Shown piece by piece: positions 14,685 through 62,077 of a DNA stretch of 64,000 nt. The notes below the pieces were generated by a model. It was not told the origin of the DNA, did not search any database, and was given only the letters and a program-made list of their open reading frames with translations. The first letter of the stretch is position 1, and the number at the start of each line of letters is the position of its first letter. The stretch lies in NCBI GenBank assembly GCA_965223565.1, contig CBDCWV010000018.1, positions 1,094,214 through 1,158,213 of the forward strand, given 5' to 3'. Both the position numbers and the translations under genes were made by a program. The stretch comes from Myxococcota bacterium (GTDB lineage: Bacteria > Myxococcota_A > UBA9160 > UBA4427).

Positions 14685-15806
14685 ATGTCCGCCGCGGAAC
14701 GATTGATCTCATCGGATGACCACGTCGATTTGAGCCACGACCAGGTCAAGGGCTTTTTGGCGAGCAGATACCACGCGTCATACGACGACGCGATCGCGCG
14801 GTTCAGCGCAAGCATGGCGCGATCCCACGGAGCAGAGGCGAACGCGCGCTGGCGGGAGCAGGAGGGACTCGAGCTCGCTGGGCCCGATGCCCCGTCGATC
14901 GAGTCGAGTCGCACGCATCCGGCCGCGGGTAGGCCGGGCCATACGGATCCCCACGCGCGAATCGCCGATCTCGATACCGACGGTGTCGATGCGTCGATCA
15001 TGTACTGCGAAGTGAGTGCCTTTCGGTATCTCTATCTCCTGAAGGAAGGGGCTCGAGAGGCGACGCGTGCCTTCAACTCCGCGATGCACGAGTTCGCCAG
15101 TCCGAACCCGGAGCGACTCGTCTGCTCCTACCAGATTCCGATCAACGACATCGATGCCGCCGTCGAAGAGGTGCGTTGGGTCGCGTCCCAGGGCGGCAAG
15201 TCGCTGCAGCTGCCGCTCTTCCCTCCCGAGCTCGGATTGCCGGACTATTGGGAGAGGCGCTACGACCCGCTCTGGGCGACGATCGAGGAGACGGGCCTTC
15301 CCGTCTGCTGCCATATCGGCCTCAATCTCCAGCTCGAGGATCTCGCCCAGCGCGATCCCACCCCGCAAAAGGGAATCTTCGTCGGCTCGGTCGCCCTCTC
15401 GACCGCCGAGGCGATGGGTATGTTCATCATGGGCGGCGTCTTCGAGCGATTCCCGAAGCTGAAGGTGGTGTTCGTCGAGCCCGGACTCGGTTGGGTGAGC
15501 TGGTGGCTCTATATCGTCGACGACCTCAAGCGACGTCAGGGATACGATTTCCCCGCGATCTCCGAGCTGCCGAGTCACTATTTCCATCGAAACGTCTCGC
15601 TGACCTTCATCGACGAGCCCGACGCATATCGCCAGGCAACCGAGCGTCTCGGAGTCGACAACATCATGTGGTCTTCGGACTATCCCCACCCGGTCTCGAG
15701 CTGGCCACGGTCGGTCCAGACGGTGAACAAGATGTTCGACGGGGTCCCCGCCGCCGACCGGGAGAAGATCGTCAGCGGGAACGCCGCGCGCGTCTGGAAT
15801 CTCTGA
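14685..15806 (+). CDS. Amidohydrolase-2 (ACMSD-like metal-dependent hydrolase) family protein
   Basis: 373 aa with SSDDHVDL near the N-terminus and WSSDYPHP near the C-terminus. It has paralogs at 38745 and 50536. Confidence 0.85.
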   Translation: MSAAERLISSDDHVDLSHDQVKGFLASRYHASYDDAIARFSASMARSHGAEANARWREQEGLELAGPDAPSIESSRTHPAAGRPGHTDPHARIADLDTDGVDASIMYCEVSAFRYLYLLKEGAREATRAFNSAMHEFASPNPERLVCSYQIPINDIDAAVEEVRWVASQGGKSLQLPLFPPELGLPDYWERRYDPLWATIEETGLPVCCHIGLNLQLEDLAQRDPTPQKGIFVGSVALSTAEAMGMFIMGGVFERFPKLKVVFVEPGLGWVSWWLYIVDDLKRRQGYDFPAISELPSHYFHRNVSLTFIDEPDAYRQATERLGVDNIMWSSDYPHPVSSWPRSVQTVNKMFDGVPAADREKIVSGNAARVWNL

Positions 15807-38574: not shown

Positions 38575-38744
38575 GCTGGGTCGGGCGACAGGCGTTCCCG
38601 CCGCACGTGTTCCCGAGTGCGTCGACGCCCGAGCTGACGGGTCCACACATCCGAGTCGACTGATCGTGAAGTCGTCGACAACGCCTCTGCACAGGGTGAT
38701 ACTCGCGCGCCGCTGAGTGATTGGTGTCTCGAGGAGCTTCGGCC

Positions 38745-39914
38745 ATGATCATCGACGTCGATTCTCATTTCGAACCGGGCAACGACTGGCTGACCCCCTA
38801 TCCCGATCTCGCGCGTAAGCTGCCCGAGCTCGACCCTCGGCTGCTCGCGATCGATGCGATCGCAGGCGACTTGCTTCGCGGGGTGCCCGAGGCGGATCGC
38901 CCGTCGACCGAGGATCTGGCTCCGCCCGGTCTGTTCGAGCTCTATGACGAGGAGAAGGCGTCCGAGCGTGAGCGGCGCGAGGAGTTCGAAGGGAAGGACC
39001 AGTTCCAGATCGCGAACGCGGCCGCGCGTGTGAAGTGGCTGGACGCCCAGGGTATCGATCGCCAACACGTGATCTGTCTGTCGGGCATCGCCTATGGGAT
39101 CCAGGTCGACGATCCGTCGCTCCGCCGCGAGGTGATTCGTGCTTGTAATACCTGGCTCGCGGATACCTGCGACGAAGGTGGCGAGCGGCTCGTGCCCGTT
39201 ACGGCGCTCGAATACGGGGATCTCGACTTCGTCGTCGACGAGCTCACGCGAATGCGCGCGCGGGGTAGCCGGATCTTCCTCGTACCGGCCTATCCCGTGA
39301 ATGGCGTGCCGCCGAGCCACCCGAGCTGGGATCGGGTGTGGGCGGCCGCGTGCGACCTGGCGATGGTGCCGATGCTCCATACGGGCTTCGAGCGGATGTG
39401 GTTCGATCCGGGCTGGGCGAATCAGAATGGAGACGTCACGCTCTTGCGCATGCTCTGCGGAGCCCATCGCCACGTCGCGCCCACGACTCTGATCAACGCG
39501 CTCATCTACTCGGGCGTCTTCGAACGATTTCCGAAGCTGACGCTGCTGCTCGCCGAGGTCGGTACGGGATGGCTGCCCTTCCTGTATCGCGAGATCGACG
39601 ACCGTGTCTCGCCCGTGGCCGAGCTCTTCGTCGGCAAGTCGAGCCTTCCGCTCAAGCCGAGCGAGTACCTCGCGCGAAACGTCAAAGCGACGCCGCTGGA
39701 CGGCGGCAACGACTCGCCGCTGACCCAGATCATGAGCGAGCTACCCGACGAGATGCTCGTCTTCTCCTCCGACTTTCCGCATTTCGAGGGCTTCACGGAT
39801 CCGATGGGCCACTACGCGGAGACGCTCGCAGTGCTCGATTCCGTCCAGCGCGAGCGTTTCATGGGCGGCACGATCGCCGACGTGTTCGCGCGGGTCGGTG
39901 ATCCGGTCGTGTAG
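38745..39914 (+). CDS. Amidohydrolase-2 family protein
   Basis: GAGGAG lies 8 nt upstream. Contains MIIDVDSHFEP... and ...VFSSDFPHFEG. Confidence 0.85.
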   Translation: MIIDVDSHFEPGNDWLTPYPDLARKLPELDPRLLAIDAIAGDLLRGVPEADRPSTEDLAPPGLFELYDEEKASERERREEFEGKDQFQIANAAARVKWLDAQGIDRQHVICLSGIAYGIQVDDPSLRREVIRACNTWLADTCDEGGERLVPVTALEYGDLDFVVDELTRMRARGSRIFLVPAYPVNGVPPSHPSWDRVWAAACDLAMVPMLHTGFERMWFDPGWANQNGDVTLLRMLCGAHRHVAPTTLINALIYSGVFERFPKLTLLLAEVGTGWLPFLYREIDDRVSPVAELFVGKSSLPLKPSEYLARNVKATPLDGGNDSPLTQIMSELPDEMLVFSSDFPHFEGFTDPMGHYAETLAVLDSVQRERFMGGTIADVFARVGDPVV

Positions 39915-49635: not shown

Positions 49636-50471
49636 CAGCGGCTCTCGGCCGATCGATTCTGCCAGGCCAGAGCGGCCTTCAGCCCATCGCGCTCAGCGAT
49701 CCGAGCAAATTCCTGGGCGGCGGGGGATCGGTGTGCGATCGCATCGGACTCACGCGCGAGCTCCTGCAGCATCGTTCGCCCCATGAGGTCGATCGCCTTG
49801 TTGCAGATCGACTTGTTCTGGGCCACCAGGTCGTAGGGAACCTGCGCGATGTCCGTCGCGAGGGCGTGCACGGTTTCGTCCAGCTCTCGCGGCGCGACCG
49901 CTTGCATCACGAGTCCGATACGTTCCGCCGTTCGGCCGTCGATCATCCCGCCCGTCAGCAGGAGCCGCTTCGCCCACTGCGGCCCGACCATGTAGGTCCA
50001 CATGTGTGTCGAGGGCGAGCCCATCGATCTCACCGCCGGGAACCCGAGCTGGGCGTCCTCACTCGCGACGATCATGTCGCAATTGAGCGCCATATCGGTT
50101 CCACCGGCCAGGCAATAGCCGTGGACCTTGACGATGATCGGTTTCGTCAGGCTCCACAGATTCGACCAGCGACCGGATCGTGCGGTCAGGTCGTTGATGT
50201 CCTGCCGGATCGTGAGCTCCGACGGCGCGCGGGCTCCGTGGTCGACGACGTCGGTGTCGCTCTTGGGTGTGAGGTCCCATCCCGAGCAGAACGCGCGTCC
50301 GGCTCCCTGGAGCACCAGGCAGCCGACCTCCTCGTCCGCTTCGGCCGCCTTCGTGGCGTCGAGAAGCTCCTGCATCAGATCGGTCGTGAGGGCGTTCAGC
50401 TTCTCCGGCCGGTTCAGTGTGAGATACGCGACGCGGTCTCGCGTCTCGGTCAGGACGTTCTCGGATCGCAT
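49635..50471 (-). CDS. Enoyl-CoA hydratase/isomerase family protein
   Basis: The internal ATG 50471 gives MRSENVLTETRDRVAYLTLNRPEKLNAL...GAGRAFCSGWD...VHGYCLAGG. Confidence 0.85.
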   Translation of the reverse strand: MRSENVLTETRDRVAYLTLNRPEKLNALTTDLMQELLDATKAAEADEEVGCLVLQGAGRAFCSGWDLTPKSDTDVVDHGARAPSELTIRQDINDLTARSGRWSNLWSLTKPIIVKVHGYCLAGGTDMALNCDMIVASEDAQLGFPAVRSMGSPSTHMWTYMVGPQWAKRLLLTGGMIDGRTAERIGLVMQAVAPRELDETVHALATDIAQVPYDLVAQNKSICNKAIDLMGRTMLQELARESDAIAHRSPAAQEFARIAERDGLKAALAWQNRSAESR

Positions 50472-50535
50472 CTCGAATTCTCCCCGCGCCAGATCCCGGA
50501 GTGATGATACCCTCGAAAGGTACCAGGAGAGTGCC

Positions 50536-51840
50536 ATGCACGAGCCGCTCCCGTTCCAGATCAATGACGCCGACAATCATTTCGTCGAGCCGGAGGACAT
50601 GTACGAGCGGTACATCGACCCGCGATTTCGAGACAAGGCGGTCCGCTTCGTTCGGGGATCCGACGGCCGACGCGTCCAGCTCTTTGGAGATCGACCTTCG
50701 AAGCTCGCCTTCACCCGCGAATCGGCTCCGCAGACCGAGCAGGAGCTCGAGACCCTTGCGACGACGGCGGCGGCCGACGCGCGGGCCGACGCACCGAGGC
50801 CGGGAGACGGGGGCGCGCGCTCTCCCGGAATGTTCCTCAATCGCCTGAATCCCTACAAAGGCCTCGATGAAGCCGAACGCAAGGCGCTGATTCGCGATTT
50901 CAAGGAGCAGGAGGCGGCGTGGGGCGATCGTGATCGCCGCCTCGCTCTGATGGACGAGCAGGGGATCGATGCCGCTTTGATGTTTCCGGGCCACGTGCTC
51001 AGCCTCGAGTACGAGTTCCAGGACGACGTCGACGCTATCCACGCCAATGCGCGGGCATATAATCGCTGGATCTTCGATGAGGTCGGCTATTCCCATCAGG
51101 ATCGCATGTTCCTGCCGCCTTATGTTCCGCTGGCGGACATCGACCTCGCGGTCGAAGAAGTCGAACGCGTGATCGCCGAGGGGGCGCGCGTCGTCGGCTT
51201 CATCTCGGGCCACGTCCATGGCGGACGGAAGAATCCACGCGGCGGACGCTCGATCGCGGATCCCGTCTTCGACCCCGTTTGGTCGCGAATCGACGAGGCG
51301 AACGTCCGCGTTGCCACGCATGTCGGTCCGACCGACTATCAGAAATACGGGGCCGACTTGAGCGAGGACCCGGAGGCGGTGCTCGGAAGCTTCGATGGAC
51401 TGCAATGGGCGCTCTACTGGTGCGACCGACCGGCCATGGAGACCGTGACCAGCATGATCATGCACGGGCTCTTCGATCGCTTTCCGAATATCCATGTCTG
51501 TCTGGCAGAGCAGGGCACGCCGTGGCTTCCCTACCTGCTCCGCAAGCTCGATCATGCGTTCCTGATGGGACGCAAGGCGCGTTGGGGCTCGCTCGATCGA
51601 CGGCCGAGCGAGCTCTTCCGAGAACATTTCGTCGTCGCACCGTTTCCGGAGGAGAACGTCGAGCGAGTTGTGGCGGAGGTCGGTATCGAGCCGATCGTGT
51701 TCGGGTCGGATTTTCCGCACGGGGAGGGGCTCGCCTTTCCGAGCCAATACGTCTCCGCCCAGCTCGGAGGCTTCTCGCAAGAGCAGATCGAGGCGATCAT
51801 GCGCGACAATTTGGCGCGATTCCTGATGCTCGATCGATGA
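50536..51840 (+). CDS. Amidohydrolase-2 family protein
   Basis: AGGAGA Shine-Dalgarno. Contains MHEPLPFQINDADNHFVEPEDMY... and ...VFGSDFPHGEG. Upstream track-ORF codons are a shadow of the crotonase gene. Confidence 0.85.
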   Translation: MHEPLPFQINDADNHFVEPEDMYERYIDPRFRDKAVRFVRGSDGRRVQLFGDRPSKLAFTRESAPQTEQELETLATTAAADARADAPRPGDGGARSPGMFLNRLNPYKGLDEAERKALIRDFKEQEAAWGDRDRRLALMDEQGIDAALMFPGHVLSLEYEFQDDVDAIHANARAYNRWIFDEVGYSHQDRMFLPPYVPLADIDLAVEEVERVIAEGARVVGFISGHVHGGRKNPRGGRSIADPVFDPVWSRIDEANVRVATHVGPTDYQKYGADLSEDPEAVLGSFDGLQWALYWCDRPAMETVTSMIMHGLFDRFPNIHVCLAEQGTPWLPYLLRKLDHAFLMGRKARWGSLDRRPSELFREHFVVAPFPEENVERVVAEVGIEPIVFGSDFPHGEGLAFPSQYVSAQLGGFSQEQIEAIMRDNLARFLMLDR

Positions 51841-53941
51841 TGCTCGTGGGTGTCGGTACGAGCCCCTTCGCGTCGAGCTCGATCACGCGATCGGCACTCG
51901 CGTAGGTCTCCGGCCGATGGGCCACGATCAGGCGGGTGAGCGCGAGCTGACTCACGGCCTGATTCACGCGCTGCTCCCGCGCGGTGTCGAGATGGCTCGT
52001 CGCTTCGTCGAGAACCAGAATCGCTGGCGCTTTGTAGAGCGCGCGCGCCAGCAAAACGCGTTGCTTCTGGCCTCCGGAGAGGACGGTCCCCATGTCGCCG
52101 ATCAGCGTGTTGTAGGCCATCGGCATGGCAGAGACGTCTTCGTGGACGGCGGCGCGTTCGGCGCACGTCTCGATCCGTGCGTGATCGGGTGTCGGGTCGA
52201 AGAAGCTGATGTTGTCGGCGATCGATCCGGCGAAGAGCTGATCCTCCTGCATGACGGTTCCGATCATGTCGCGATATCCGGGTCCCAGCGCGGAGATGTC
52301 TACGCCGCCGACGCGAATCTCGCCCTCGACGGGCGTGAGCAGGCCGAGAATCAGCTTCAGGAGTGTCGTCTTGCCGCAGCCGGACGGGCCGATGATCGCG
52401 ACCGATTTCCCCGCGTCGATCTCGAAGCTCACGTTCTCTAGGACGAGCGGCTCGGACTCCGAATAGCGAAAGCTGACGCCCCGTACCTCGATTCCCGCCG
52501 CGGCTTCCGTCTCGCGACGCGAGCTCATTGAGGACTCGGCTTCGGGCGCGGTGAGTGCGATGTCGGCGACTCGCTCCGTATGGAGGCCGAGCATCTTCAG
52601 CTCGATCGCGTTCTCGATCAGACTCGACACGCGTTCCGAGAACTGCTGCTTGTAGGCCATGAACGCGAAGAGCATGCCGACCGAGAAGCCGCCGTTCAGC
52701 ACGGCCAGCGCGCCGAGCCAGACGACCGCGACGTTCTCGATGCTGAACAGACCCCCGTTCGCCCCTTCGTACAGGATCTCGAGCTTCTGCGTGCGGATGT
52801 CGGCATTGATGTTGTCCACCAGCAGGTTCTGATGCGCGACGGAGCGCTGTGTCTCGCGGCGGAAGAGCTTGACGCTCTGCATGCCGCGTAGGGTCTCGAG
52901 GAAGTAGGTCTGCTGACGCGCGGCATGGGCGATCTGCTCCTCCTGCGCCTGGCGTAGCGGCCTGAACAGGGCCCATCGAAGTGCCGCGTAGAGAACGACC
53001 GCGGCGCAGACCACCGCGGTCAGTCGCCAGCTGTAGACGAGCATCATTCCCAACGTGATGACCGCCATCAGACCGTCGACGATCGCCTCGATCAGATTCG
53101 AGGTCAGGCCGGACTGAATCGCCTGGAGAGACTCGAAGCGCGACGCGATGTCGCCGAGATGGCGCTTCTCGAAGAAGCGCATTGGCAGCTTCAACAGGTG
53201 ACGAAACAGCCGATCGGCCATTCGCAGGCTCAGGCCCGTGCTGAGGGTCATCACGACCCAGGCGCGCAATGCGCTGACGCCAGTGTGGACGATGGCGAGC
53301 AGGAGAAATCCCATGCCCAATACGACGAGGAAATGTCGGTCTCCACCGACGAGTGCATCGTCGACGACCAGCTGCATGAAGAGGGGGCTCGCGATCGCGA
53401 AGACCTCGAGCGCCGCTGCGAGGACGAGAATCTGGGCCATCGCGCCGCGCGCGCCGGGCAGCCGGCCGACCAGATCTCGCAGGGCCACGTTCCGGCGTTC
53501 GACTCTGGGTTCGAATGCTTCGGTCGGAGCGAGCTCCAGGGCGACGCCGGTGAAATGTTTCGAGGCCTCGGCCAGGCTGAGTCTTCGCGTGCCGCGGGCA
53601 GGGTCGTGGATGAAGACGTGGCCACGGTGCACGCGTTCGACGACCACGAAGTGGTTGAAATCCCAATGCAGGATGGCCGGTAGGTCGAGCCGTTTCAATT
53701 CGTCGAGATCGACTCTGACGGCACGCGGGGCGAGCTGCATTCGAAGCGCGATCTCCATCAGCTGCGCGAGTGTCGATCCCTTGAGCGAGAGTGGATGGTG
53801 ACCGCGCAGACTGGTGAGATCCGTGCGGTATCCGTGGTATCCGGCAACCATCGCGAGACAGGCCAGACCGCATTCTGCGGCCTCGGCCTGCAGGACGAGG
53901 GGAAGGCTCCTGCGACTGGAGAATTTCAACGAGCTGCGCAT
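51797..53941 (-). CDS. Peptidase C39 domain-containing ABC exporter (bacteriocin/microcin-type, CvaB/LagD-like)
   Basis: N-terminal LQAEAAECGLACLAMVAGYHG (Cys), HWDFNHFVVV (His) and FIHDP (Asp). Six-TM domain. Walker A GPSGCGKTT, signature LSGGQKQR, Walker B ILVLDEATS. Confidence 0.92.
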   Translation of the reverse strand: MRSSLKFSSRRSLPLVLQAEAAECGLACLAMVAGYHGYRTDLTSLRGHHPLSLKGSTLAQLMEIALRMQLAPRAVRVDLDELKRLDLPAILHWDFNHFVVVERVHRGHVFIHDPARGTRRLSLAEASKHFTGVALELAPTEAFEPRVERRNVALRDLVGRLPGARGAMAQILVLAAALEVFAIASPLFMQLVVDDALVGGDRHFLVVLGMGFLLLAIVHTGVSALRAWVVMTLSTGLSLRMADRLFRHLLKLPMRFFEKRHLGDIASRFESLQAIQSGLTSNLIEAIVDGLMAVITLGMMLVYSWRLTAVVCAAVVLYAALRWALFRPLRQAQEEQIAHAARQQTYFLETLRGMQSVKLFRRETQRSVAHQNLLVDNINADIRTQKLEILYEGANGGLFSIENVAVVWLGALAVLNGGFSVGMLFAFMAYKQQFSERVSSLIENAIELKMLGLHTERVADIALTAPEAESSMSSRRETEAAAGIEVRGVSFRYSESEPLVLENVSFEIDAGKSVAIIGPSGCGKTTLLKLILGLLTPVEGEIRVGGVDISALGPGYRDMIGTVMQEDQLFAGSIADNISFFDPTPDHARIETCAERAAVHEDVSAMPMAYNTLIGDMGTVLSGGQKQRVLLARALYKAPAILVLDEATSHLDTAREQRVNQAVSQLALTRLIVAHRPETYASADRVIELDAKGLVPTPTSIIDRASGIAPNCRA

Positions 53942-53942
53942 C

Positions 53943-55199
53943 TCAAGCCCGCTTGGCGATGCCGAGGAGTGGCTCGAAGAGCCATTCGACGAGTCGCCGT
54001 CGGTCGAGCCACACGTCGGCTTCGAGCAGCATTCCAGCCTGGAGGGGGAGCGCGTTCGCGTAGGCCATGACCGTCTGACGGTCGAGCGCGACGGTGACTC
54101 GGTACGCCGGCTCGTCCCCCGCGATCGGCAGGCTGGCTTCGTCTGGCGCGATCAACGTTCTGGAGATTTCGGTGACGCGTCCGTGGTGGAGGCCGAAACG
54201 CTGATAGGGAAAGGCTTGGTAGCGCAGAGAAACTCTCTGTTCGGGCTCGATGAAGCCGATCGAGCGACTCGGCACGAGCAGCTGTGCCTCGAGAATCGCG
54301 CCCTGCGGGAGGATCGAAAGCAGGAGCGTATTCGGCTGCGCGGTCTGGCCACGGTCCACGAGAATCGCAGTCGCGGTCCCATCGGCCGGTGCAGCGATCT
54401 CGATCGTGCGTCGAGACTGACGTTCCATGCGCTCCTGTTCGAGCGCTGCGATCTCGCGGCTGATCGAGGAACGTCGATTCTGGGCCTCGAGCTCCTGGGT
54501 GGCCGATCGTCGCTCGAGTGCCCCGAGCTCGGTCTCCAGTGAGACACGAGCGCGGCGCAGACTCTTCTCTCTCGCCCGCTGCGCAAGCCATAGCTCGCGG
54601 TGCTCCTCTGTTCGCGCCTTCGAGACGAGGTCCTGCGCGAGCAGCCTCCGGTAGCGTCGAAGCGTTCGCGCGGCGTTCGCGGTGCGCTGCTCCTGGATGC
54701 GAATCTCTGCGTCGAGCTGCGTCAGCTCCGCTCGAAAACCGTTCGCGCGTTCTCGCGCGGTGCCCAGAGCGATGGCGTCGATCGCGTCTTGCTTGTCACG
54801 CTCGTGTGACAGGCGTTCGCGCCGCTCTTCGATCATCTCGATCGCAGCGGCCTGCGTCTTGGCCGTCTCGCGCGACCCGCGTTCCGTGGACAGCAGGAAG
54901 AGTCGCTCACCGCGTCTGACCCGTTGGCCCTCGACGACGTGGCTCTCGACCAGCGTGCCCGCCTGTTGCGCATACACCTTGATCAAGCCGTGATCGGGTG
55001 TGAGATAGCCAGGAACCTGCGCCTTTCGCGTGTACTGCCCCAGGAAGACGAAGGCGACGAGCGACGCCGCAACTGCCGCTGACAGAAACGTGAGCAGTCC
55101 GCGCGAAGGGGATCGCGCGATGACGGCCTCACCGAGCGACTTCTCTCGATTGAAATCGAGCGCTTCGTGGCGAAAGAGTGATTCGTGGGATTCCGTCAT
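53943..55199 (-). CDS. HlyD-family membrane fusion (type I secretion adaptor, CvaA-like) protein
   Basis: MTESHESLFRHEALDF... followed by a single TM, a long coiled-coil, a barrel-sandwich region, and ...RRLVEWLFEPL. The stop is 1 nt from the ABC gene start. Confidence 0.9.
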   Translation of the reverse strand: MTESHESLFRHEALDFNREKSLGEAVIARSPSRGLLTFLSAAVAASLVAFVFLGQYTRKAQVPGYLTPDHGLIKVYAQQAGTLVESHVVEGQRVRRGERLFLLSTERGSRETAKTQAAAIEMIEERRERLSHERDKQDAIDAIALGTARERANGFRAELTQLDAEIRIQEQRTANAARTLRRYRRLLAQDLVSKARTEEHRELWLAQRAREKSLRRARVSLETELGALERRSATQELEAQNRRSSISREIAALEQERMERQSRRTIEIAAPADGTATAILVDRGQTAQPNTLLLSILPQGAILEAQLLVPSRSIGFIEPEQRVSLRYQAFPYQRFGLHHGRVTEISRTLIAPDEASLPIAGDEPAYRVTVALDRQTVMAYANALPLQAGMLLEADVWLDRRRLVEWLFEPLLGIAKRA

Positions 55200-55290
55200 G
55201 ACGATCCAGCCTGAGGATGAGGTGATCTGCGGACCGGATCGTCGGCGCCCGACCGCGACCGTCGCCGATTGTGCGGCGCCGAAACGAGCC

Positions 55291-55311
55291 GAGGACGCTT
55301 TGCGCGTCCCC
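55291..55311 (-). terminator. Hairpin between the precursor peptide gene and the HlyD gene (attenuator/partial terminator candidate)
   Basis: The minus strand reads GGGGACGC-GCAAA-GCGUCCUC, an 8-bp stem with one G-U pair, followed by GGCUCGUUUCGG. It lies 21 nt after the peptide stop. Confidence 0.4.
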
Positions 55312-55331
55312 GGCTGACAGCTCGGTCGACC

Positions 55332-55538
55332 TCAGCGACGAGCGACCTCTCGAACGCGACCGCGAAGGCTTCGCTTGGCGCGTCGAACGGCCTCTCTGAC
55401 CCGCGACTTGAAGGAACGTCCGCCCCTCCGGCGCGAGATCTTCTTGATGAGGGCGGCCTGGCCCCTCACGGCTTCGGCGATCGATCCGAAGATTCCGCCC
55501 GAAACCAGATCGAGCTCTCGAGTATCGAGTGTCCGCAT
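55332..55538 (-). CDS. Double-glycine-leader peptide precursor (68 aa): 15-aa leader plus a 53-aa Arg-rich core
   Basis: MRTLDTRELDLVSGG | IFGSIAEAVRGQAALIKKISRRRGGRSFKSRVREAVRRAKRSLRGRVREVARR. GGAG Shine-Dalgarno 5 nt upstream, preceded by an unusually AT-rich leader (AAACCAACAAAATGGAG). It lies directly upstream of, and on the same strand as, the HlyD and C39-ABC genes. Confidence 0.75.
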   Translation of the reverse strand: MRTLDTRELDLVSGGIFGSIAEAVRGQAALIKKISRRRGGRSFKSRVREAVRRAKRSLRGRVREVARR

Positions 55539-55690
55539 GTCGTCTCCATTTTGTTGGTTTCCACTTCGCGACCAGGCGGAGAGCCCGCGCCGGTCATTCG
55601 ATTACCGGCAGCACCGCCTGCCAGGGTCGCGTGTGTACTTCCATCGAAGTGGAGCCGAGGTTCACGGAGAATCACCGTGTCCGTCGTGTC

Positions 55691-55714
55691 GGAGGAACGA
55701 GGTGTCGTTCCCCC
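55691..55714 (-). terminator. Strong hairpin downstream of the choice-of-anchor gene
   Basis: The minus strand reads GGGGGAACGA-CACC-UCGUUCCUCC, about 10 bp including a G-U pair with a tetraloop, roughly 40 nt after the stop at 55753. There is no U-tract. Confidence 0.4.
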
Positions 55715-55752
55715 AAAGGGCCGATCGTCCCCGTGGAGGACCGAAGCTTTCG

Positions 55753-57672
55753 TCAGGGGACGCGCGAGGCCGAGCAATCGCAGCTTGAGCGTGTCCGGGA
55801 ACGCCACCCTGCGAGACTCGCGACCGCACACGCGAGTGCCATCCCAAAGCCCGGCTCCGGCAGGTATTCGTAGGCGCCCATGTCGCATTCGCGATCACCG
55901 TCGAAGTTTCCGTCGACCGGCCTGAATGCGCCCCGCTGGTCGTATTCGGCGGGACCGGCGCCGGGCGCGGGGCAGCGGCCCGCGTCGATCGCGGGACTCG
56001 TTCCGGCGAGGGGTTGGACCGAGGACCAGCCGTCTTCGAAGAAGGGCAGAAAATTCGGATTGGCGAAGTAGATCATCCCGGTATGCAAGCCACCGATGCC
56101 GCAAGGGGTTCCCGTAAAGATTGGGCCCGGGACCTCGATCAGGCTGTTTGCGCCGTTCGAGAACTGACCGATACAATCCGGATAGTCGCCTCCGACCACC
56201 TCGTTGTCTGCGACGATCGAGTTGACGAGCGCCGTAGTCCAATTCGTGTTCGAGCCCAGGTAGATCCCGCCCCCGTCGCCGTAGATGTTCCCGGTCCATC
56301 CGTCGGCGTTGGCGATGTTTTCTGTGACTGTCACGTGATCGAGTCGCAGATCGGATCCCGGCGAATAGATGCCACCGCCGTGGGCGTCAGCGGCGTTCCC
56401 CACGATCGAGACGTTCTCCAAATCCACGTCGTTTCCTGCGCCATAGAGATAGATCCCGCCGCCGAGACCGTGGGACGTGTTGTCGTAGATTGCGGAATTG
56501 CGCATCTCCAGTTCCGCATTGCTGAGGAAGATTCCGCCTCCGGTGTCCGCGGCCAGGTTGTTTCGCACGGCGACGCGCTCGAGCAGGATCGGTTCGATCC
56601 CTCCATTGATTGCGAGTCCACCCCCGTCGCCTCCTGTGTACGGTGAACTGCTATAGGCACTATTCGATGCGATCTCACTGCGGCTGATCTCGAGGATGGC
56701 GCCGTACGAGTACACGCCTCCCCCCCGTGCATCCCTTGTCGCGGAGAGGTTCTGTGCGAGGTTGCCCTCGATCAAGGTATCCGAGATGCGCAGCTCCCCG
56801 TCGCCGCGGTTGGCGACGCCGCCTCCGTACACGAAGCTGATGTCATTGAGGCCCCTCGCGCTGTTCGACGTGATCTGCGTCCCGCCGTCGAGTGTGACCA
56901 GGCCGTCCAGGTTGTAGATGCCTCCGCCGACCCCGGTCGCGAGATTGGAATGGACGACTGCGCCGCTCAATCGCATCTCGGGCGTCTCCGTCCAGTAGCT
57001 CGAACTCGAGCTCTGCGTGAGACCGCCTCCGATCGGTGCCTCGTTGTCGCTCACGATCAATCCGCCCGGACTCACGAGGCGCGCATGGTTCTTGATGCCG
57101 CCCCCGGCAAAGTCAGCTTCGTTGTCTCGGATCGTGACATCCTGGAGCACTACGGTTGCGCTGAAGTTGCTGAGCCCGCCCCCGCCGCCGCCTCGATTCG
57201 ACTCGAGCGTGACGCGGTCGAAGCGGACCGTGATCAGCTCAGAGGTTGGACCGACCACGACGCCCCCACCGTCGGAGACCGTATCCCCATGGCGAATCGT
57301 CAGATCGCGAAACTGCACATCATCGTCGGTGTCGACGCGAAAGACCCGTCCCGCGCTCATCCCGGGTGCCGCCGCGGCCTGCACGATCGTCTGGCTCTGG
57401 GAGGTGCCCGCGATCGTGACCGATCTCAGGACGACAATGTTGGCTTCGGTGTGGGGCGAGGTCATCTGCAGCTGGATCGTGTCACCCGCCGAAGCCCCAA
57501 TGATGGCGGACTGGATCGTCGTGTAGTCGCACGTCGCGGGGCAGACGGTCCAGGTTGCGGCGTTGGCGTTCTTCGCCGAAAGACCGCCTACGGCGATCGT
57601 GAGCAATCCGAAGAGCAAGCCAGCGTTCATTCCTGCTGTTGCTCGCATTGCGATCCAGTTCCCTACGATCAT
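55753..57672 (-). CDS. Choice-of-anchor-Q-like beta-helix protein with a PEP-CTERM tail
   Basis: GGGAG Shine-Dalgarno before ATG 57672. Signal ...TIAVGGLSAKNANA. Many GGG(I/V)(Y/F) turns typical of Pmp-like beta-helices. Contains YDQRGAFRPVDGNFDGDRECDMGAYEY. C-terminus LPEPGFGMALACAVASLAGWRSRTR plus a 12-aa tail. Confidence 0.8.
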   Translation of the reverse strand: MIVGNWIAMRATAGMNAGLLFGLLTIAVGGLSAKNANAATWTVCPATCDYTTIQSAIIGASAGDTIQLQMTSPHTEANIVVLRSVTIAGTSQSQTIVQAAAAPGMSAGRVFRVDTDDDVQFRDLTIRHGDTVSDGGGVVVGPTSELITVRFDRVTLESNRGGGGGGLSNFSATVVLQDVTIRDNEADFAGGGIKNHARLVSPGGLIVSDNEAPIGGGLTQSSSSSYWTETPEMRLSGAVVHSNLATGVGGGIYNLDGLVTLDGGTQITSNSARGLNDISFVYGGGVANRGDGELRISDTLIEGNLAQNLSATRDARGGGVYSYGAILEISRSEIASNSAYSSSPYTGGDGGGLAINGGIEPILLERVAVRNNLAADTGGGIFLSNAELEMRNSAIYDNTSHGLGGGIYLYGAGNDVDLENVSIVGNAADAHGGGIYSPGSDLRLDHVTVTENIANADGWTGNIYGDGGGIYLGSNTNWTTALVNSIVADNEVVGGDYPDCIGQFSNGANSLIEVPGPIFTGTPCGIGGLHTGMIYFANPNFLPFFEDGWSSVQPLAGTSPAIDAGRCPAPGAGPAEYDQRGAFRPVDGNFDGDRECDMGAYEYLPEPGFGMALACAVASLAGWRSRTRSSCDCSASRVP

Positions 57673-57909
57673 CTCGATCTCCCGATCCGGAACGCGCTCG
57701 CGCTCGCGTTTCCGATCGGAGCAATACGCTACGCACGCGCCGCCATGCCCACCGTGAAGGGCTTCACACATCGCGCGGTGCTTCCTGAGGGGAATCGTCT
57801 CGCTTCATTCGATTGGCGCACGCTCCCGACGGCGTACCCTTTCGCCGTAGGACGACGACTGACGACGAGGACGTGCGGAGAATCCGACGTGGGTCCCGGG
57901 AGGCCGATC

Positions 57910-59160
57910 ATGAGTCGAAGGATGGAAGCGCGCTCTGGGGCTTGTGTCGAACGCCTGTCGTCAGGCGCGCCCTCCGTCGAGCGAAATCGGTGCGATCTGG
58001 GCGCCAGCTGGACCTTTCGTCTGCTGCTCGCGGTCGTGGCGTTCGCGCCTGCCGCACACGGACAGATCGAGAACATGATCGAGATCCAGACGCTCTCGGC
58101 GGCCGATGCAGGCGGTTGTTATGTCGGAGCCTCCGGCTCGGACGCCACGATGTTCATCCGGGCGGCGCCCGGTGGCACGACTTGTGATTTCGGCGACCTG
58201 AATCCGAACTTCTGTCTCCACCGTCGGGAATTTCCCGCCGATGGGGCGGATGGAGCAGCCGTCAGCTTCAGCGACATGGCCTTGCTGCGTCCGACGCTTC
58301 AGGGCGACGGCGAAGTCGTCTGGTTCGTGAACAATCTCGACCTCTGCGTGATGTTCAGCAACCAGGTGCAGCAGGACGCGTGCTACATGCTGCCGCCGAC
58401 GTTCTTCGTGAACTCGGTTGCCGTCCAGCCTCAGGGCGCCCTGCTCGGGATGGTTCCGCGTGACCTGTTCAACATCAACGTGCCGGCCAATGCGATCCAG
58501 GTCTTCGGTATCGGGAGCTTTCCGAGCCTGACGCTCCTGGCCACTCTCCAGTTCACGAACCCGCTCGTCTATCCGGAGACGCTCGACTTCATGACCCGTG
58601 GGTCTTGGATCGTCTTCGACGCGTCGACGACGCCGACGGCGGGAGGTGCGTGGGGATTGTACCTGGTGAATCGCGTCACGGGTGCCTTCCGCACGCTGGC
58701 TGCCCCCGTCGCCGGCTACGAGCTGCGCAATCCGGTCTTCGGCCAAACGAGCGACGACGTGATCGCCTTCGATGCGATCGATACCAGCACGGGTCAGGCA
58801 ACCGTGCTGACCGCAGACATCGTCAGCGGCGCCGTGCGCAAGGTCGCCGAGCTGGCGACGCCGATGGGCGTTCCGACCTTCAATGGCGACGATTCTGCGC
58901 TCGTCTTCAACCGGGAGGATGCGAGCGTTTTCTCGACCGTCTCGCTGCGCGAACGACCGCTATCGGCCGATCGGATCACCCCGACCGGCAGCGAGACGGC
59001 CCATGTCGCGAACGGAGGCTACGCGACGATCTACCGTCGCGGCGCGTTCGACGACTCGGCGGTGGCATGCCCAGAACCCGGCATGGTCACTGGGCTCGCG
59101 ATTTCGTTGCTCTGGATGCGTCTCGCCCCGCGTCGAAGCGGGCGACGAGGGCTTCTCTGA
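57910..59160 (+). CDS. PEP-CTERM secreted hypothetical protein (beta-rich, possibly propeller-like)
   Basis: GGGAGG Shine-Dalgarno. Signal ...FRLLLAVVAFAPAAHGQ. C-terminus ACPEPGMVTGLAISLLWMRLAPRRSGRR. The first 320 codons of the track ORF are antisense shadow of the previous gene. Confidence 0.7.
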   Translation: MSRRMEARSGACVERLSSGAPSVERNRCDLGASWTFRLLLAVVAFAPAAHGQIENMIEIQTLSAADAGGCYVGASGSDATMFIRAAPGGTTCDFGDLNPNFCLHRREFPADGADGAAVSFSDMALLRPTLQGDGEVVWFVNNLDLCVMFSNQVQQDACYMLPPTFFVNSVAVQPQGALLGMVPRDLFNINVPANAIQVFGIGSFPSLTLLATLQFTNPLVYPETLDFMTRGSWIVFDASTTPTAGGAWGLYLVNRVTGAFRTLAAPVAGYELRNPVFGQTSDDVIAFDAIDTSTGQATVLTADIVSGAVRKVAELATPMGVPTFNGDDSALVFNREDASVFSTVSLRERPLSADRITPTGSETAHVANGGYATIYRRGAFDDSAVACPEPGMVTGLAISLLWMRLAPRRSGRRGLL

Positions 59161-60313: not shown

Positions 60314-62077
60314 ATGTTCGATCTCAAGATCAGCGGTGGCACCATCATCGACGGAACGGGCCAGCCCGGCTTCACGGGCGACGTCGCGATCGAGGGTGGC
60401 ACGATCGCCGCCGTCGGCCCTCGGGTCGAAGGTGAGGCGCGCGAGACCGTGGACGCGACGGGGCTCCTCGTCACGCCAGGCTTCGTCGACATCCACACCC
60501 ACTACGATGGTCAGGCGACCTGGGACTCCCTGCTCGATCCTTCGGCGAGTCATGGTGTGACGACCGTCGTCGCGGGAAATTGCGGTGTCGGCTTCGCGCC
60601 CGTCCGACCGGGTGACGAGAAGCGATTGATCGAGATGATGGAGGGTGTCGAGGACATTCCGGGTACGGCCCTGTACGAGGGCATCCAGTGGAGTTGGGAG
60701 AGATTTCCCGAGTATCTGGATGCACTCGATCGGCGCGAGTACGCGATGGACATCGCTGCCTTCATGCCCCACGCACCCCTTCGTCTCTACGTGATGGGTG
60801 ATCGTGGCGAGCGCAACGAAGCAGCGACGGAAGAAGATATCGCAGCGATGGCGCAGCACGTACGCGAGGCGATCGCCGCCGGGGCTGTCGGTTTCTCGAC
60901 GTCCCGATCACTCAACCACAAGACGCTCGAGGGTGATCTCGTCGCCGGCACCTTCGCGGGCCAGGACGAGCTGGAAGGACTCGCCAAGGCACTGCTCGAG
61001 GCCGGCGGGGGCCTCTTCGAGGTCGTGCCGCAGGGCGAGACGGGAGACGACGAGGCGTTGATCCTCGGAGAAATCGAGCTGCTCGCAAGGGTCTCGAGGC
61101 AGACGGGCGTCGAGATCTCTTTCTTGATGGTGCAGGCGGGAGGCGCTCCCGATCTCTGGCGCAAGCAGCTCGAGGCCACGGCGCGCGCCAATGCGAAGGG
61201 GGCGCGACTCGTGCCCCAGGTCGGGGGCCGCCCGGGTGGCATGTTGATCGGAATCCCGAGCTACCACGGCTTCATGCGACGGCCGACGTTTCGTCGTCTC
61301 GAATCCGAGCTCTCCGGCGAGGCACTCCTCGAAGCGCTTCGACGGTCGGAGAACCGAGCCGCGATTCTCGCGGAGGAAGACCTTCCGGCGACTTCGTCGG
61401 AGCAATTCGCAGCGATGACCGAGAACATGGATTTTCTGTTCTCGCAGATGTACCCGCTCGGGGATCCACCGGACTACGAGCAGACGCCGGATTGTTCGAT
61501 CGCGGGTGTTGCGAAGGCGACGGGGAGAGACCCCTGGGAGGTCCATTACGATCTCCTCGTCTCGGGAAAATGGACGCTCGGAGCCTTCACCAACTACGCG
61601 CAGGCGAGCCAGGAACCGCTTCGGGCGATGATCACCGATCCGTCGACGGTGCTCGGCCTGTCGGATGGCGGAGCGCACGTACGCATGATCTGTGATGCTT
61701 CACTCCCGACCTATCTCCTGACCCATTGGGCGCGGGATCGCAAGCGCGGCGAACGGATTCCACTCGAGACACTGATCCACAAGCAATGTGCTGCGACTGC
61801 GAAGGCGGTCGGTCTGCACGATCGTGGGACGATCGAAGTGGGTCGCAAGGCAGATCTCAACGTCATCGATTTCGAGAAGCTCTCGCTCGACGTGCCCCGC
61901 TCGGTCGACGATCTGCCGGCGGGCGGCCGCCGCATCCTCCAGGACGCGAGTGGCTACGTCGCGACGATCGTGAGCGGCGTCATCACGCGGCGGGGCGATC
62001 GGGATACCGGGGCGCGACCCGGTCGTCTGGTTCGCGTCGACCATGGCTCGAGCGATTCGTCGTCGATCGCGACCTGA
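60314..62077 (+). CDS. N-acyl-D-amino-acid deacylase (D-aminoacylase) / amidohydrolase-3 family protein
   Basis: MFDLKISGGTIIDGTGQPGFTGDVAIEGGTIAAVG...GLLVTPGFVDIHTHYDGQ. 587 aa. AGGAGAAGG Shine-Dalgarno. Confidence 0.9.
   Translation: MFDLKISGGTIIDGTGQPGFTGDVAIEGGTIAAVGPRVEGEARETVDATGLLVTPGFVDIHTHYDGQATWDSLLDPSASHGVTTVVAGNCGVGFAPVRPGDEKRLIEMMEGVEDIPGTALYEGIQWSWERFPEYLDALDRREYAMDIAAFMPHAPLRLYVMGDRGERNEAATEEDIAAMAQHVREAIAAGAVGFSTSRSLNHKTLEGDLVAGTFAGQDELEGLAKALLEAGGGLFEVVPQGETGDDEALILGEIELLARVSRQTGVEISFLMVQAGGAPDLWRKQLEATARANAKGARLVPQVGGRPGGMLIGIPSYHGFMRRPTFRRLESELSGEALLEALRRSENRAAILAEEDLPATSSEQFAAMTENMDFLFSQMYPLGDPPDYEQTPDCSIAGVAKATGRDPWEVHYDLLVSGKWTLGAFTNYAQASQEPLRAMITDPSTVLGLSDGGAHVRMICDASLPTYLLTHWARDRKRGERIPLETLIHKQCAATAKAVGLHDRGTIEVGRKADLNVIDFEKLSLDVPRSVDDLPAGGRRILQDASGYVATIVSGVITRRGDRDTGARPGRLVRVDHGSSDSSSIAT

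What the first reader, a model, noticed from the sequence alone, without database searches (positions are those of the whole stretch)
55332..55493. The predicted mature peptide is extraordinarily cationic (15 Arg + 4 Lys in 53 aa, no Cys) and bipartite
Seen: the core after the GG cut is IFGSIAEAVRGQAALIKKISRRRGGRSFKSRVREAVRRAKRSLRGRVREVARR. I counted 15 Arg, 4 Lys, 3 Glu and no Asp, giving a net charge of about +16.

The first ~20 residues form a hydrophobic/amphipathic stretch. The last 33 are Arg-rich with an internal near-repeat (RVREAV ... RVREVA). A second GG (RRRGGRS) lies inside the core.

There is no Cys, and no Ser/Thr-Cys pattern, so a lanthipeptide- or sactipeptide-type maturation is unlikely.

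Inference: the product is an unmodified, helical, membrane- or nucleic-acid-targeting polycation. Such a charge density is atypical for class II bacteriocins and microcins and is more reminiscent of Arg-rich antimicrobial or cell-penetrating peptides.

Caveat: Arg-rich ORFs arise easily by chance in high-GC DNA. Here the leader, the Shine-Dalgarno, the GC-rich third positions and the genomic position argue for a real gene.
Basis: partly seen in the sequence, partly recalled or inferred. Interest (0 to 1): 0.7.

Follow-up and report, generated by a model that had tools for sequence, protein, structure and literature searches.

The report
Ultra-cationic secreted peptide with dedicated exporter
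A small unannotated gene in a Gram-negative bacterium encodes a peptide with a classic export leader, next to its cleaving exporter; the released 53-residue peptide carries a conserved +16 charge, far above related exported peptides, and is most likely a new antimicrobial peptide.

Summary
Window 55332-55538 (- strand) encodes a 68-aa precursor, MRTLDTRELDLVSGG|IFGS...ARR. Its 53-aa core has 15 Arg, 4 Lys, 3 Glu, no Asp and no Cys: net +16, 6.08 kDa, pI 12.

The gene is real. An exhaustive search of 1.84 billion representative proteins found one homologue (69 aa, 55% identical). It keeps the leader, the internal RRGG and the charge (+17), with dN/dS about 0.27.

The leader matches the recognition pattern of C39 peptidases exactly: Leu-12, Glu-8, Leu-7, Val-4, Gly-Gly. 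A conserved hairpin follows the gene. Next on the same strand come an HlyD-type adaptor and an ABC exporter whose C39 domain has its Cys, His and Asp motifs.

No modification enzyme, kinase/regulator pair or immunity-like small membrane ORF lies nearby. AlphaFold and hydrophobic moments give two amphipathic helices joined at the GG: a magainin-like N-terminal helix and a very basic C-terminal helix.

Related exporters carry unrelated cargoes of net charge -3 to +2, so this cargo is an outlier. The Arg preference itself only mirrors host usage.

Best reading: an unmodified, exported, leader-cleaved polycationic peptide, probably antimicrobial. It is a new variant of the class II microcin / double-glycine bacteriocin kind. 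Activity and target are untested.

The parts
55626..55643 (-). Conserved 18-nt upstream box TGGAAGTACACACGCGAC, about 90-105 nt upstream of the ATG. Candidate promoter or regulator site; the GG-N10-GC spacing resembles sigma-54 promoters. Function not established.
   Evidence: Identical apart from one C/T in the only homologous locus L001, inside otherwise diverged upstream DNA. It occurs once in the window; 0.03 matches expected by chance.
55544..55547 (-). Shine-Dalgarno GGAG, within GGAGACGAC directly before the ATG.
   Evidence: GGAGACGACATG is identical in the window and L001.
55494..55538 (-). Double-glycine leader MRTLDTRELDLVSGG (15 aa, pI 4.6).
   Evidence: Leu-12, Glu-8, Leu-7, Val-4 and Gly-2/Gly-1 match the ComA/LahT recognition pattern quoted in PMC6363468. 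The ending [E][LI]xxV[SA]GG is shared by the cargoes of related exporters. Predicted helix at residues 6-13.
55425..55493 (-). Core N-terminal amphipathic helix IFGSIAEAVRGQAALIKKISRRR (precursor residues 16-38).
   Evidence: AF2 helix 16-38. For core residues 1-20, muH 0.535 against a shuffle mean of 0.21 (p 0.002); <H> 0.46 and net +2, magainin-like. FGSIAEA-RGQ is nearly invariant in the homologue.
55419..55424 (-). Internal Gly-Gly (precursor residues 39-40): conserved hinge, not a likely second cleavage site.
   Evidence: RRGG is conserved in P0001 and the helix breaks there in the AF2 model. Residues at -4, -8 and -12 are R, K and A, which do not fit the C39 recognition pattern (sequence compared).
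55335..55418 (-). Core C-terminal polycationic amphipathic helix RSFKSRVREAVRRAKRSLRGRVREVARR (net +11 in 28 aa).
   Evidence: AF2 helix 41-67. muH 0.419 against a shuffle mean of 0.16 (p 0.003); charge per residue 0.39. Basic character is conserved in P0001 although the sequence drifts (pN 0.41).
55279..55315 (-). GC-rich hairpin plus U-containing tail after the stop codon: a probable partial terminator between the peptide gene and the exporter genes.
   Evidence: -37.1 kcal/mol, z -4.0. The L001 counterpart gives -33.4 kcal/mol, z -4.1, with a G-C to A-U compensatory change at the stem base.
53943..55199 (-). HlyD-family membrane-fusion / periplasmic adaptor protein (418 aa).
   Evidence: Pfam HlyD_3 and HlyD_D23; NCBIfam type_I_hlyD 3.4e-36. 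The nearest relatives (56% identity) all sit next to C39-ABC exporters and GG-leader peptides.
51797..53941 (-). Peptidase-containing ABC transporter (PCAT, 714 aa): C39 peptidase, ABC membrane domain and ATPase.
   Evidence: Pfam Peptidase_C39 6.8e-36, ABC_membrane and ABC_tran. Full-length alignment to PCAT1 (4ry2) and ComA. The C39 domain best matches LahT150 (6mpz, 1.4e-22), with the ECG, NHFVV and HDP motifs aligned.

Best explanation
The locus is a three-gene peptide-export module in a diderm bacterium: precursor gene, hairpin, HlyD adaptor, then a C39-peptidase ABC transporter.

Proposed sequence of events:
1. The 68-aa precursor is recognised through its 15-aa amphipathic leader by the transporter's C39 domain.
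2. It is cut after Gly15.
3. The unmodified 53-aa core (6.08 kDa, net +16) is exported, presumably through an unlinked TolC-like channel.

Outside the cell the peptide forms two amphipathic helices joined by a conserved Gly-Gly hinge. The very basic C-terminal helix would bind polyanionic surfaces such as LPS phosphates, teichoic acids or nucleic acids. The more hydrophobic, magainin-like N-terminal helix would insert into the membrane.

The most likely role is therefore a receptor-independent cationic antimicrobial peptide used in competition. It would be a microcin-like bacteriocin with the physical chemistry of eukaryotic helix-hinge-helix AMPs.

Shown here: the gene is real and under purifying selection; leader fit; exporter identity and intact catalytic motifs; helical amphipathic prediction; conserved charge. 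Inferred: cleavage, export, lack of modification, antimicrobial activity and the membrane mechanism.
For: Gene reality:
- One homologue in 1.84e9 representative proteins (E 6.6e-9, 55% identity).
- pN 0.31 against pS 0.64, Fisher p 3e-5.
- Identity by codon position is 0.60/0.72/0.47, which fits this frame and not the antisense ORF.
- SD, upstream box and terminator hairpin are conserved in L001.

Cargo status:
- The leader has Leu-12, Glu-8, Leu-7, Val-4 and GG.
- It is the only strict GG-leader ORF in the window.
- It lies immediately upstream of the HlyD and PCAT genes.
- The C39 motifs are intact.
- Related exporters all carry [E][LI]xxV[SA]GG cargoes.

Unmodified product:
- No Cys in the core.
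- The neighbouring genes are amidohydrolase, enoyl-CoA hydratase, SDR and a beta-helix surface protein.

Structure and physical chemistry:
- AF2 gives helix 16-38, a break at GG, and helix 41-67, with pLDDT about 70-79.
- Hydrophobic moments are significant for both halves in both homologues.
- Net charge is conserved, +16 and +17.
- The N-terminal helix has parameters like magainin.

Host: diderm, with OmpA, porin O/P and a TonB-dependent receptor in the window.
Against: - No activity data exist.
- There is no adjacent immunity-type small membrane ORF, whereas class II microcins normally have one (PMC10233263).
- Only two family members are known. The second contig ends 64 nt after the stop codon, so linkage to an exporter is seen only once.
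- The C-terminal helix is too polar to insert into membranes (<H> -0.19). Its charge density equals that of ribosomal protein L34, which fits nucleic-acid or polyanion binding as well as membrane attack.
- GC3 is somewhat low (0.68).
- The AF2 model rests on two sequences and has moderate confidence.
- No curated leader or bacteriocin HMM matches the peptide.
Confidence: 0.5

Rival explanations
1. An exported polycation with a non-killing role. It could bind and organise extracellular polyanions (eDNA, acidic exopolysaccharide, polyphosphate), mediate adhesion or aggregation, or act against eukaryotic grazers rather than bacteria.
For: - No immunity gene.
- The C-terminal helix has a charge density like nucleic-acid-binding proteins and low hydrophobicity.
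- The gene lies among genes for secreted or surface beta-helix proteins whose C-termini look like PEP-CTERM signals. That flank is not conserved in L001.
Against: - GG-leader/PCAT cargoes described so far are bacteriocins, pheromones or differentiation signals (PMC6363468, PMC7018657, PMC10986499; abstracts).
- The conserved magainin-like N-terminal helix is not needed for simple polyanion binding.
- The PEP-CTERM assignment was not confirmed by NCBIfam.
Confidence: 0.22
2. An antimicrobial that kills from inside. The Arg-rich helix acts as a cell-penetrating module, and the lethal target is DNA, RNA or the ribosome, as proposed for buforin II.
For: - Charge per residue is 0.30, equal to buforin II (0.29) and ribosomal protein L34 (0.35) and well above lytic helical AMPs (0.13-0.19) (reference sequences recalled from memory).
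- Mean hydrophobicity of the whole core is about 0.
Against: - Nothing in the sequence identifies a target.
- The conserved amphipathic N-terminal helix suggests membrane interaction.
- The two modes cannot be told apart computationally.
Confidence: 0.15
3. A secreted peptide pheromone of the ComC/BlpC type, exported by a ComAB-like pair.
For: It has the same leader type and transporter family, and competence pheromones are also cationic.
Against: - No histidine kinase or response regulator was found in the neighbouring genes examined.
- At 53 aa and +16 it is far larger and more charged than known GG pheromones.
- I know of no precedent in Proteobacteria-like diderms.
Confidence: 0.05
4. A chance Arg-rich ORF in high-GC DNA, or an upstream regulatory (attenuator) ORF for the exporter genes, with no functional product.
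For: - Basic ORFs are common in this DNA: 7 of 505 reach net >= +16.
- The ORF was not called in the source annotation.
- GC3 is 0.68.
Against: - A homologue with purifying selection, and conserved leader, charge, SD and terminator.
- An exact fit to the C39 recognition pattern.
Confidence: 0.03

Closest known systems
Class IIa microcins (MccV/CvaC with CvaA-CvaB-TolC)
   Same: - Gram-negative host.
- Short GG leader.
- Unmodified core of 5-10 kDa (here 6.08 kDa).
- Adjacent MFP and C39-ABC exporter (PMC10233263).
   Different: - Microcins are hydrophobic (about 61% hydrophobic residues) and mostly neutral or anionic. They use specific outer-membrane receptors and have an adjacent immunity gene (PMC10233263).
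- This core is 38% hydrophobic and 36% basic, with net +16, and has no immunity-like ORF.
- There is no sequence similarity to any microcin.
Linear cationic helix-hinge-helix antimicrobial peptides (cecropins, magainins; buforin II for charge density)
   Same: - Cys-free.
- Two amphipathic helices separated by a Gly hinge.
- The N-terminal helix has parameters like magainin.
   Different: - Those are eukaryotic, Sec-secreted, Lys-rich and carry +3 to +7.
- Here the peptide is bacterial, exported by a PCAT, carries +16, and the most basic helix is C-terminal.
- No homology.
Bacteroidetocins (GG-leader peptide toxins of Bacteroidetes)
   Same: Gram-negative GG-leader peptides exported by a PCAT and lacking a dedicated immunity gene (PMC10233263; PMC6671954).
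   Different: [quoted passage not shown] The peptide here has no Cys and no sequence similarity to them.
Gram-positive unmodified class II bacteriocins and GG pheromones exported by ComA/LagD-type PCATs
   Same: Identical leader logic (Leu-12, Glu-8, Leu-7, Val-4, GG). The cores are cationic, and the transporter aligns full-length with ComA and PCAT1.
   Different: - As far as I know they have much lower charge (typically +2 to +8) and adjacent immunity genes or two-component systems.
- The host here is diderm, with an HlyD adaptor.
Cargoes of the nearest exporter relatives (HlyD 49-57% identical; loci L002-L018)
   Same: Same gene order (peptide(s), HlyD, PCAT) and the same leader ending [E][LI]xxV[SA]GG.
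   Different: - Their cores have net charge -3 to +2.
- They often occur in multiples and often carry Cys.
- They are accompanied by a conserved 144-aa Cys-rich protein, a LanM or a radical-SAM enzyme. None of these is present in the window.

Membership tests
Double-glycine-leader peptide cargo of PCAT/AMS transporters | N-terminal leader of about 15-30 aa ending in GG/GA/GS | tested here: met
   MRTLDTRELDLVSGG, 15 aa. Conserved in P0001.
Double-glycine-leader peptide cargo of PCAT/AMS transporters | Recognition helix with Leu-12-(X)3-Glu-8-Leu-7 and a hydrophobic residue at -4 | tested here: met
   L-12, E-8, L-7 and V-4 read directly from the sequence; criteria from PMC6363468. P0001 has L-12, E-8, I-7 and V-4.
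Double-glycine-leader peptide cargo of PCAT/AMS transporters | Adjacent ABC transporter with a catalytically competent C39 domain (Cys/His/Asp), not a degenerate C39-like domain | tested here: met
   Pfam Peptidase_C39 6.8e-36. Alignment to LahT150 and PCAT1 shows the ECG, NHFVV and HDP motifs.
Double-glycine-leader peptide cargo of PCAT/AMS transporters | Match to a curated leader or bacteriocin profile (Pfam, NCBIfam/TIGRFAM) | tested here: not met
   No family at E <= 0.01 in Pfam or E <= 1 in NCBIfam. Such short models are insensitive, so this is weak negative evidence.
Double-glycine-leader peptide cargo of PCAT/AMS transporters | Cleavage after GG and export demonstrated | not testable with these tools
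   Needs an in vitro protease assay and mass spectrometry of supernatant.
Class II microcin (five-part system, PMC10233263) | Pre-microcin, PCAT and MFP encoded together in a Gram-negative host | tested here: met
   Diderm markers in the window.
Class II microcin (five-part system, PMC10233263) | Adjacent small (51-216 aa) inner-membrane immunity protein | tested here: not met
   In 49-61 kb no ORF of 30-160 aa has a convincing TM segment. The best (KD 1.65) lies antisense inside the beta-helix protein gene. The 132-nt gap before the HlyD gene holds only the hairpin.
Class II microcin (five-part system, PMC10233263) | TolC-type outer-membrane factor available | tested here: inconclusive
   No OEP domain in the roughly 40 window ORFs scanned. 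TolC is normally unlinked, and the rest of the genome is not available.
Class II microcin (five-part system, PMC10233263) | Hydrophobic, neutral or anionic core that uses a specific receptor | tested here: not met
   Core is 38% hydrophobic, 36% basic, net +16, pI 12, against the description in PMC10233263. Receptor use is not testable.
Class II microcin (five-part system, PMC10233263) | Antibacterial activity | not testable with these tools
   Needs MIC or zone-of-inhibition assays.
Linear cationic amphipathic alpha-helical AMP | Net positive charge, no Cys, amphipathic helices | tested here: met
   Net +16 and 0 Cys. AF2 helices. muH 0.42-0.54, significant against shuffles in both homologues.
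Linear cationic amphipathic alpha-helical AMP | Membrane permeabilisation | not testable with these tools
   Needs liposome leakage or depolarisation assays.
RiPP (lanthipeptide, sactipeptide, NHLP/Nif11 type) | Cys/Ser/Thr pattern in the core plus a modification enzyme in the cluster; long NHLP/Nif11 leader | tested here: not met
   No Cys and no Thr in the core, and a 15-aa leader. No LanM, radical-SAM or cyclodehydratase among the neighbours. Relatives that do have them are L015 and L017.
GG-leader peptide pheromone (ComC/BlpC type) | Cognate histidine kinase and response regulator in the locus | tested here: not met
   None among the genes within about 10 kb.

The most novel reading that the evidence does not exclude
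This could be a previously unrecognised family of bacterial 'super-cationic' exported peptides: about +16 in 53 aa, helix-GG-helix. Gram-negative bacteria would release them through a PCAT type I system without any immunity protein. They would act independently of receptors, by self-promoted uptake across LPS followed by membrane or nucleic-acid attack, or alternatively as secreted polyanion-binding factors. The family may be nearly invisible in databases because gene callers skip it: the window's own copy is unannotated, and only one relative was found among the proteins searched.
Probability: 0.3. Interest if true: 0.6.

Novelty: new variant of a known kind. Interest (0 to 1): 0.45.

Why it matters
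Class II microcins and other GG-leader peptides of Gram-negative bacteria are now known to be widespread (PMC12219008). Those characterised are hydrophobic, neutral or anionic, receptor-dependent and paired with immunity proteins (PMC10233263).

A PCAT cargo with the charge density of a ribosomal protein, no immunity gene and AMP-like amphipathic helices would widen the chemical and mechanistic range of this secretion route. It would also raise two concrete questions. How does an ABC exporter move +16 charges out against the membrane potential? How does the producer tolerate a polycation in its cytoplasm and on its own outer membrane?

At 53 unmodified residues without Cys, the peptide could be made by chemical synthesis, so the hypothesis should be straightforward to test. 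The case also shows that such genes are missed by routine annotation.

Tried and rejected
Searches for more family members. All were empty apart from P0001:
- Word-index search of 5.8e9 clusters with the peptide and with the two-sequence profile.
- JGI metagenome contigs with protein patterns and with a degenerate DNA pattern.
- GTDB species genomes.
- IMG/VR.

The exhaustive phmmer run gave only P0001, plus two low-complexity hits in long repetitive proteins that I disregard.

Searches for a known family or structure:
- Pfam and NCBIfam found nothing for the peptide.
- The PDB sequence search gave only a designed coiled coil at E 1.1.
- Rfam found nothing in the window.

Source organism. The exact-sequence look-ups show that the HlyD and PCAT proteins are on a 1.5-Mb NCBI/ENA contig, but no name or record could be retrieved. 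The taxon remains unknown beyond 'diderm, 65% GC'. A close-relative search with the HlyD protein in GTDB genomes found nothing.

Cargo-exporter charge co-adaptation. The window PCAT's membrane domain is slightly more acidic than that of 7 relatives: 27 against 22-24 Asp/Glu, and 8 unique acidic against 4 unique basic substitutions. This is not significant, so I rejected it as evidence.

Second cleavage at RRRGG. Rejected because the -4, -8 and -12 positions are R, K and A.

Antisense ORF 55269-55925 (+) as the real gene. Rejected because its GC pattern by codon position is non-coding-like (0.64/0.67/0.64) and its first codon position is the least conserved.

Simple sigma-70 promoter and terminator scan. 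No promoter was found, and the conserved hairpin was missed because its U-tract is weak.

PEP-CTERM assignment of the flanking proteins. Not confirmed by NCBIfam.

Full report
**1. The observation**

The minus-strand ORF at window 55332-55538 encodes the 68-aa sequence MRTLDTRELDLVSGGIFGSIAEAVRGQAALIKKISRRRGGRSFKSRVREAVRRAKRSLRGRVREVARR.
- After the first Gly-Gly, the 53-residue core is encoded at 55335-55493, with the stop at 55332-55334.
- The core contains 15 Arg, 4 Lys, 3 Glu, no Asp and no Cys: net +16, 6,076 Da, pI 12.
- The inner RRRGG and the RVREAV/RVREVA near-repeat are present.

**2. Is it more than chance?**

Basic ORFs by themselves are cheap in this DNA.
- Among 505 ATG-initiated ORFs of 40-150 aa in the window, 7 reach net >= +16 over their last 53 residues.
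- Only one ORF in the window has a strict double-glycine leader, and it is this one.

An exhaustive phmmer scan of 1.84 billion representative proteins returned exactly one credible relative, P0001.
- It is 69 aa, 55% identical over the full length, E 6.6e-9.
- Its sequence is MRTLNVQEIEQVSGGRFGSIAEAIRGQLGLIRKIKGRKRRGGSLARRLREISRRARRIVGGRREAFGRR.
- It lies on a 1.6-kb Logan contig, L001.

Codon-wise comparison of the two genes points to a protein-coding gene under purifying selection.
- pN is 0.31 against pS 0.64 (dN/dS about 0.27; Fisher p 3e-5).
- Identity by codon position is 0.60/0.72/0.47. This is the signature of selection in this frame, and it is incompatible with the long antisense ORF, whose first position would be the least conserved.
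- The charge is conserved (+16 against +17, 36-37% basic residues), and all three Glu are retained or shifted by one position.

The two loci share nothing else. They have in common only the peptide gene, its Shine-Dalgarno (GGAGACGACATG), an 18-nt upstream box and a hairpin after the stop codon. What is conserved is therefore a small expression module.

- GC3 of the ORF is 0.68, below the 0.73-0.84 of neighbouring genes.
- The Arg:Lys ratio (0.79) is just the host's (0.84 over 22 genes). The unusual property is the basic fraction, not arginine as such.

**3. Surroundings**

A stable hairpin lies just downstream of the stop codon.
- Its stem-loop spans 55287-55315, with a short U-containing tail to 55279; the folded 65-nt stretch gives -37.1 kcal/mol, z -4.0.
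- It is conserved in L001 (-33.4 kcal/mol, z -4.1), with a compensatory G-C to A-U change at the stem base.

An HlyD-family adaptor follows on the same strand at 53943-55199. Immediately after it comes a 714-aa peptidase-containing ABC transporter at 51797-53941 (Pfam Peptidase_C39 6.8e-36, ABC_membrane, ABC_tran).
- The transporter aligns end to end with PCAT1 and ComA.
- Its N-terminal domain best matches the LahT150 double-glycine protease (6mpz, 1.4e-22).
- The catalytic Cys (ECG), His (NHFVV) and Asp (HDP) motifs are aligned. It is an active-type C39 domain, not an HlyB-like degenerate one.

The other neighbours give no hint of modification, signalling or immunity.
- They are an amidohydrolase, an enoyl-CoA hydratase, an SDR and a 672-aa beta-helix 'choice-of-anchor Q' surface protein.
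- There is no modification enzyme and no kinase/regulator pair.
- No ORF of 30-160 aa with a credible transmembrane segment occurs between 49 and 61 kb, so there is no immunity-gene candidate.

OmpA, porin O/P and a TonB-dependent receptor elsewhere in the window show that the host is diderm. The region is ordinary chromosomal metabolism with uniform composition.

**4. The leader**

- The leader here reads L(-12) D T R E(-8) L(-7) D L V(-4) S G G, a perfect fit.
- The homologue has L, E, I and V at the same positions.
- Around the inner Gly-Gly the corresponding residues are A(-12), K(-8), I(-7) and R(-4). A second C39 cut is therefore unlikely.

**5. Relatives of the exporter**

The nearest HlyD proteins (49-57% identical, 415-416 aa) are numerous in metagenomes and in Methylomonas and Burkholderiales-type genomes. 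I examined seventeen of their loci, L002-L018.
- All have the order peptide(s), HlyD, PCAT.
- All cargoes end their leaders in [E][LI]xxV[SA]GG, the same ending as here.
- The cores are unrelated to one another and to this peptide. They are accompanied variously by a conserved 144-aa Cys-rich protein, a LanM or a radical-SAM enzyme.
- Their net core charges are -3 to +2.

Within its own exporter clade the +16 cargo is an extreme outlier. The window locus is also the simplest: one cargo and no accessory gene.

**6. Structure and physical chemistry**

AlphaFold2 on the two-sequence alignment gives the following (mean pLDDT 70, and 74-79 in the core):
- a leader helix at residues 6-13;
- a break at the cleavage site;
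- a helix at 16-38;
- a break exactly at Gly39-Gly40;
- a helix at 41-67.

Both core halves are significantly amphipathic in both homologues. In the window peptide muH is 0.535 (p 0.002) for the N-terminal half and 0.419 (p 0.003) for the C-terminal half.
- The N-terminal helix (<H> 0.46, net +2) has parameters like magainin.
- The C-terminal helix (<H> -0.19, +11 in 28 aa) has a narrow hydrophobic stripe on an otherwise Arg-covered surface.
- Its charge density is like that of buforin II or ribosomal protein L34 (reference sequences recalled from memory).

**7. Most likely mechanism**

Proposed steps:
- The precursor is made from its own promoter.
- The conserved hairpin probably lets only part of transcription continue into the exporter genes, giving excess cargo over exporter.
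- The C39 domain binds the leader helix and cuts after Gly15.
- The ABC/HlyD pair, with an unlinked TolC-type channel, expels the unmodified core.
- Outside the cell, the basic helix docks on polyanionic envelopes and the N-terminal helix engages the bilayer.

I put the individual probabilities as follows:
- about 0.95 that the gene is real;
- about 0.85 that it is the exporter's cargo;
- about 0.55-0.6 that it is antimicrobial;
- about 0.4 that the primary lesion is membrane damage rather than an intracellular or extracellular polyanion target.

The rival readings are set out separately: a matrix or polyanion-binding factor, an intracellular-target toxin, a pheromone, and a chance ORF.

**8. 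Comparison with what is known**

It works like a class IIa microcin system or a Gram-positive unmodified GG bacteriocin system. It fails two defining microcin features that I could test:
- an adjacent immunity protein;
- a hydrophobic, neutral or anionic core (PMC10233263).

The lack of an immunity gene has a precedent in bacteroidetocins. The peptide's architecture resembles eukaryotic helix-hinge-helix AMPs, but there is no homology. No curated family, PDB entry or Rfam model matches.

I therefore class it as a new variant of a known kind. The secretion logic is known. The cargo class is new, with two members among the roughly 15 billion public proteins that the searched collections draw on. 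Small ORFs like this one are often not called, and the window's own copy is absent from the collection.

**9. Limits**

- There are only two sequences.
- The second contig ends 64 nt after the stop codon, so exporter linkage is seen once.
- The host taxon was not identified.
- All functional statements are inference.

**10. Verdict**

- Interest is moderate (0.45): an unusual and readily testable candidate, not a new principle.

Noticed in passing
window 55626-55643 (- strand); L001 about 1248-1265: An 18-nt box, TGGAAGTACACA(C/T)GCGAC, is almost identical in the two otherwise diverged upstream regions, about 90-105 nt before the ATG. Its GG-N10-GC spacing resembles sigma-54 promoters, but the match to TGGCACG-N4-TTGCW is only partial. 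No enhancer-binding protein gene was seen nearby.
   Followed up: partly
window 55473-55493 (- strand), codons for FGSIAEA: The DNA is 20/21 identical between the two homologues, including 6 of 7 third positions, against 47% third-position identity overall. It contains the palindrome GATCGATC flanked by TTCG/CCGAA. This may be an embedded RNA or DNA element, or chance (p about 0.05).
   Followed up: no
window 55753-57771 (-) and the C-terminal part of ORF 56950-59160 (+): Two secreted proteins flank the peptide's upstream side: one beta-helix 'choice-of-anchor Q' protein and one with no family match. Both end in ...PEPG + hydrophobic stretch + Arg-rich tail, which looks like a PEP-CTERM sorting signal. 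NCBIfam did not confirm it.
   Followed up: partly
L003 5326-5760, L002 5217-5768, L006 2515-2949, L009 2521-2955, L008 82-516: A conserved 144-aa Cys-rich protein with no Pfam or NCBIfam match lies between the GG-leader peptides and the HlyD gene in many related exporter loci. It is absent from the window. It may be an uncharacterised maturation or immunity factor for those cargoes.
   Followed up: partly
L015/L016 1-2924; L017 655-1698: The same HlyD/PCAT clade is also attached to a LanM-type lanthipeptide synthetase and to a radical-SAM enzyme with a 72-aa GG-leader peptide. This exporter clade therefore serves both modified and unmodified cargoes.
   Followed up: no
window 51797-53941 (PCAT residues 151-470): The membrane domain has slightly more acidic residues than 7 relatives (27 against 22-24). 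Window-specific residues are D195, D243, E363, D381, E388, E392 and E436. This might be adaptation to a polycationic cargo, but it is not statistically significant.
   Followed up: partly
window 55332-55538: The peptide sequence is absent from the protein collection, although the neighbouring HlyD and PCAT proteins of the same 1.5-Mb contig are present. The gene was therefore not called in the source annotation.
   Followed up: yes
L001 847-1125 (- strand): In the homologous contig a 92-aa predicted membrane protein is transcribed divergently about 230 nt upstream of the peptide gene. It has no counterpart in the window and no family match, so it is not a conserved immunity candidate.
   Followed up: partly
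window 14685-15806, 38721-39914, 50128-51840, 60314-62077: The window has unusually many amidohydrolase-family genes (three Amidohydro_2, one Amidohydro_3), together with enoyl-CoA hydratases, a thiolase-like protein, an acyl-CoA ligase, a sulfatase and a TonB-dependent receptor. This suggests a catabolic region of an environmental heterotroph.
   Followed up: no
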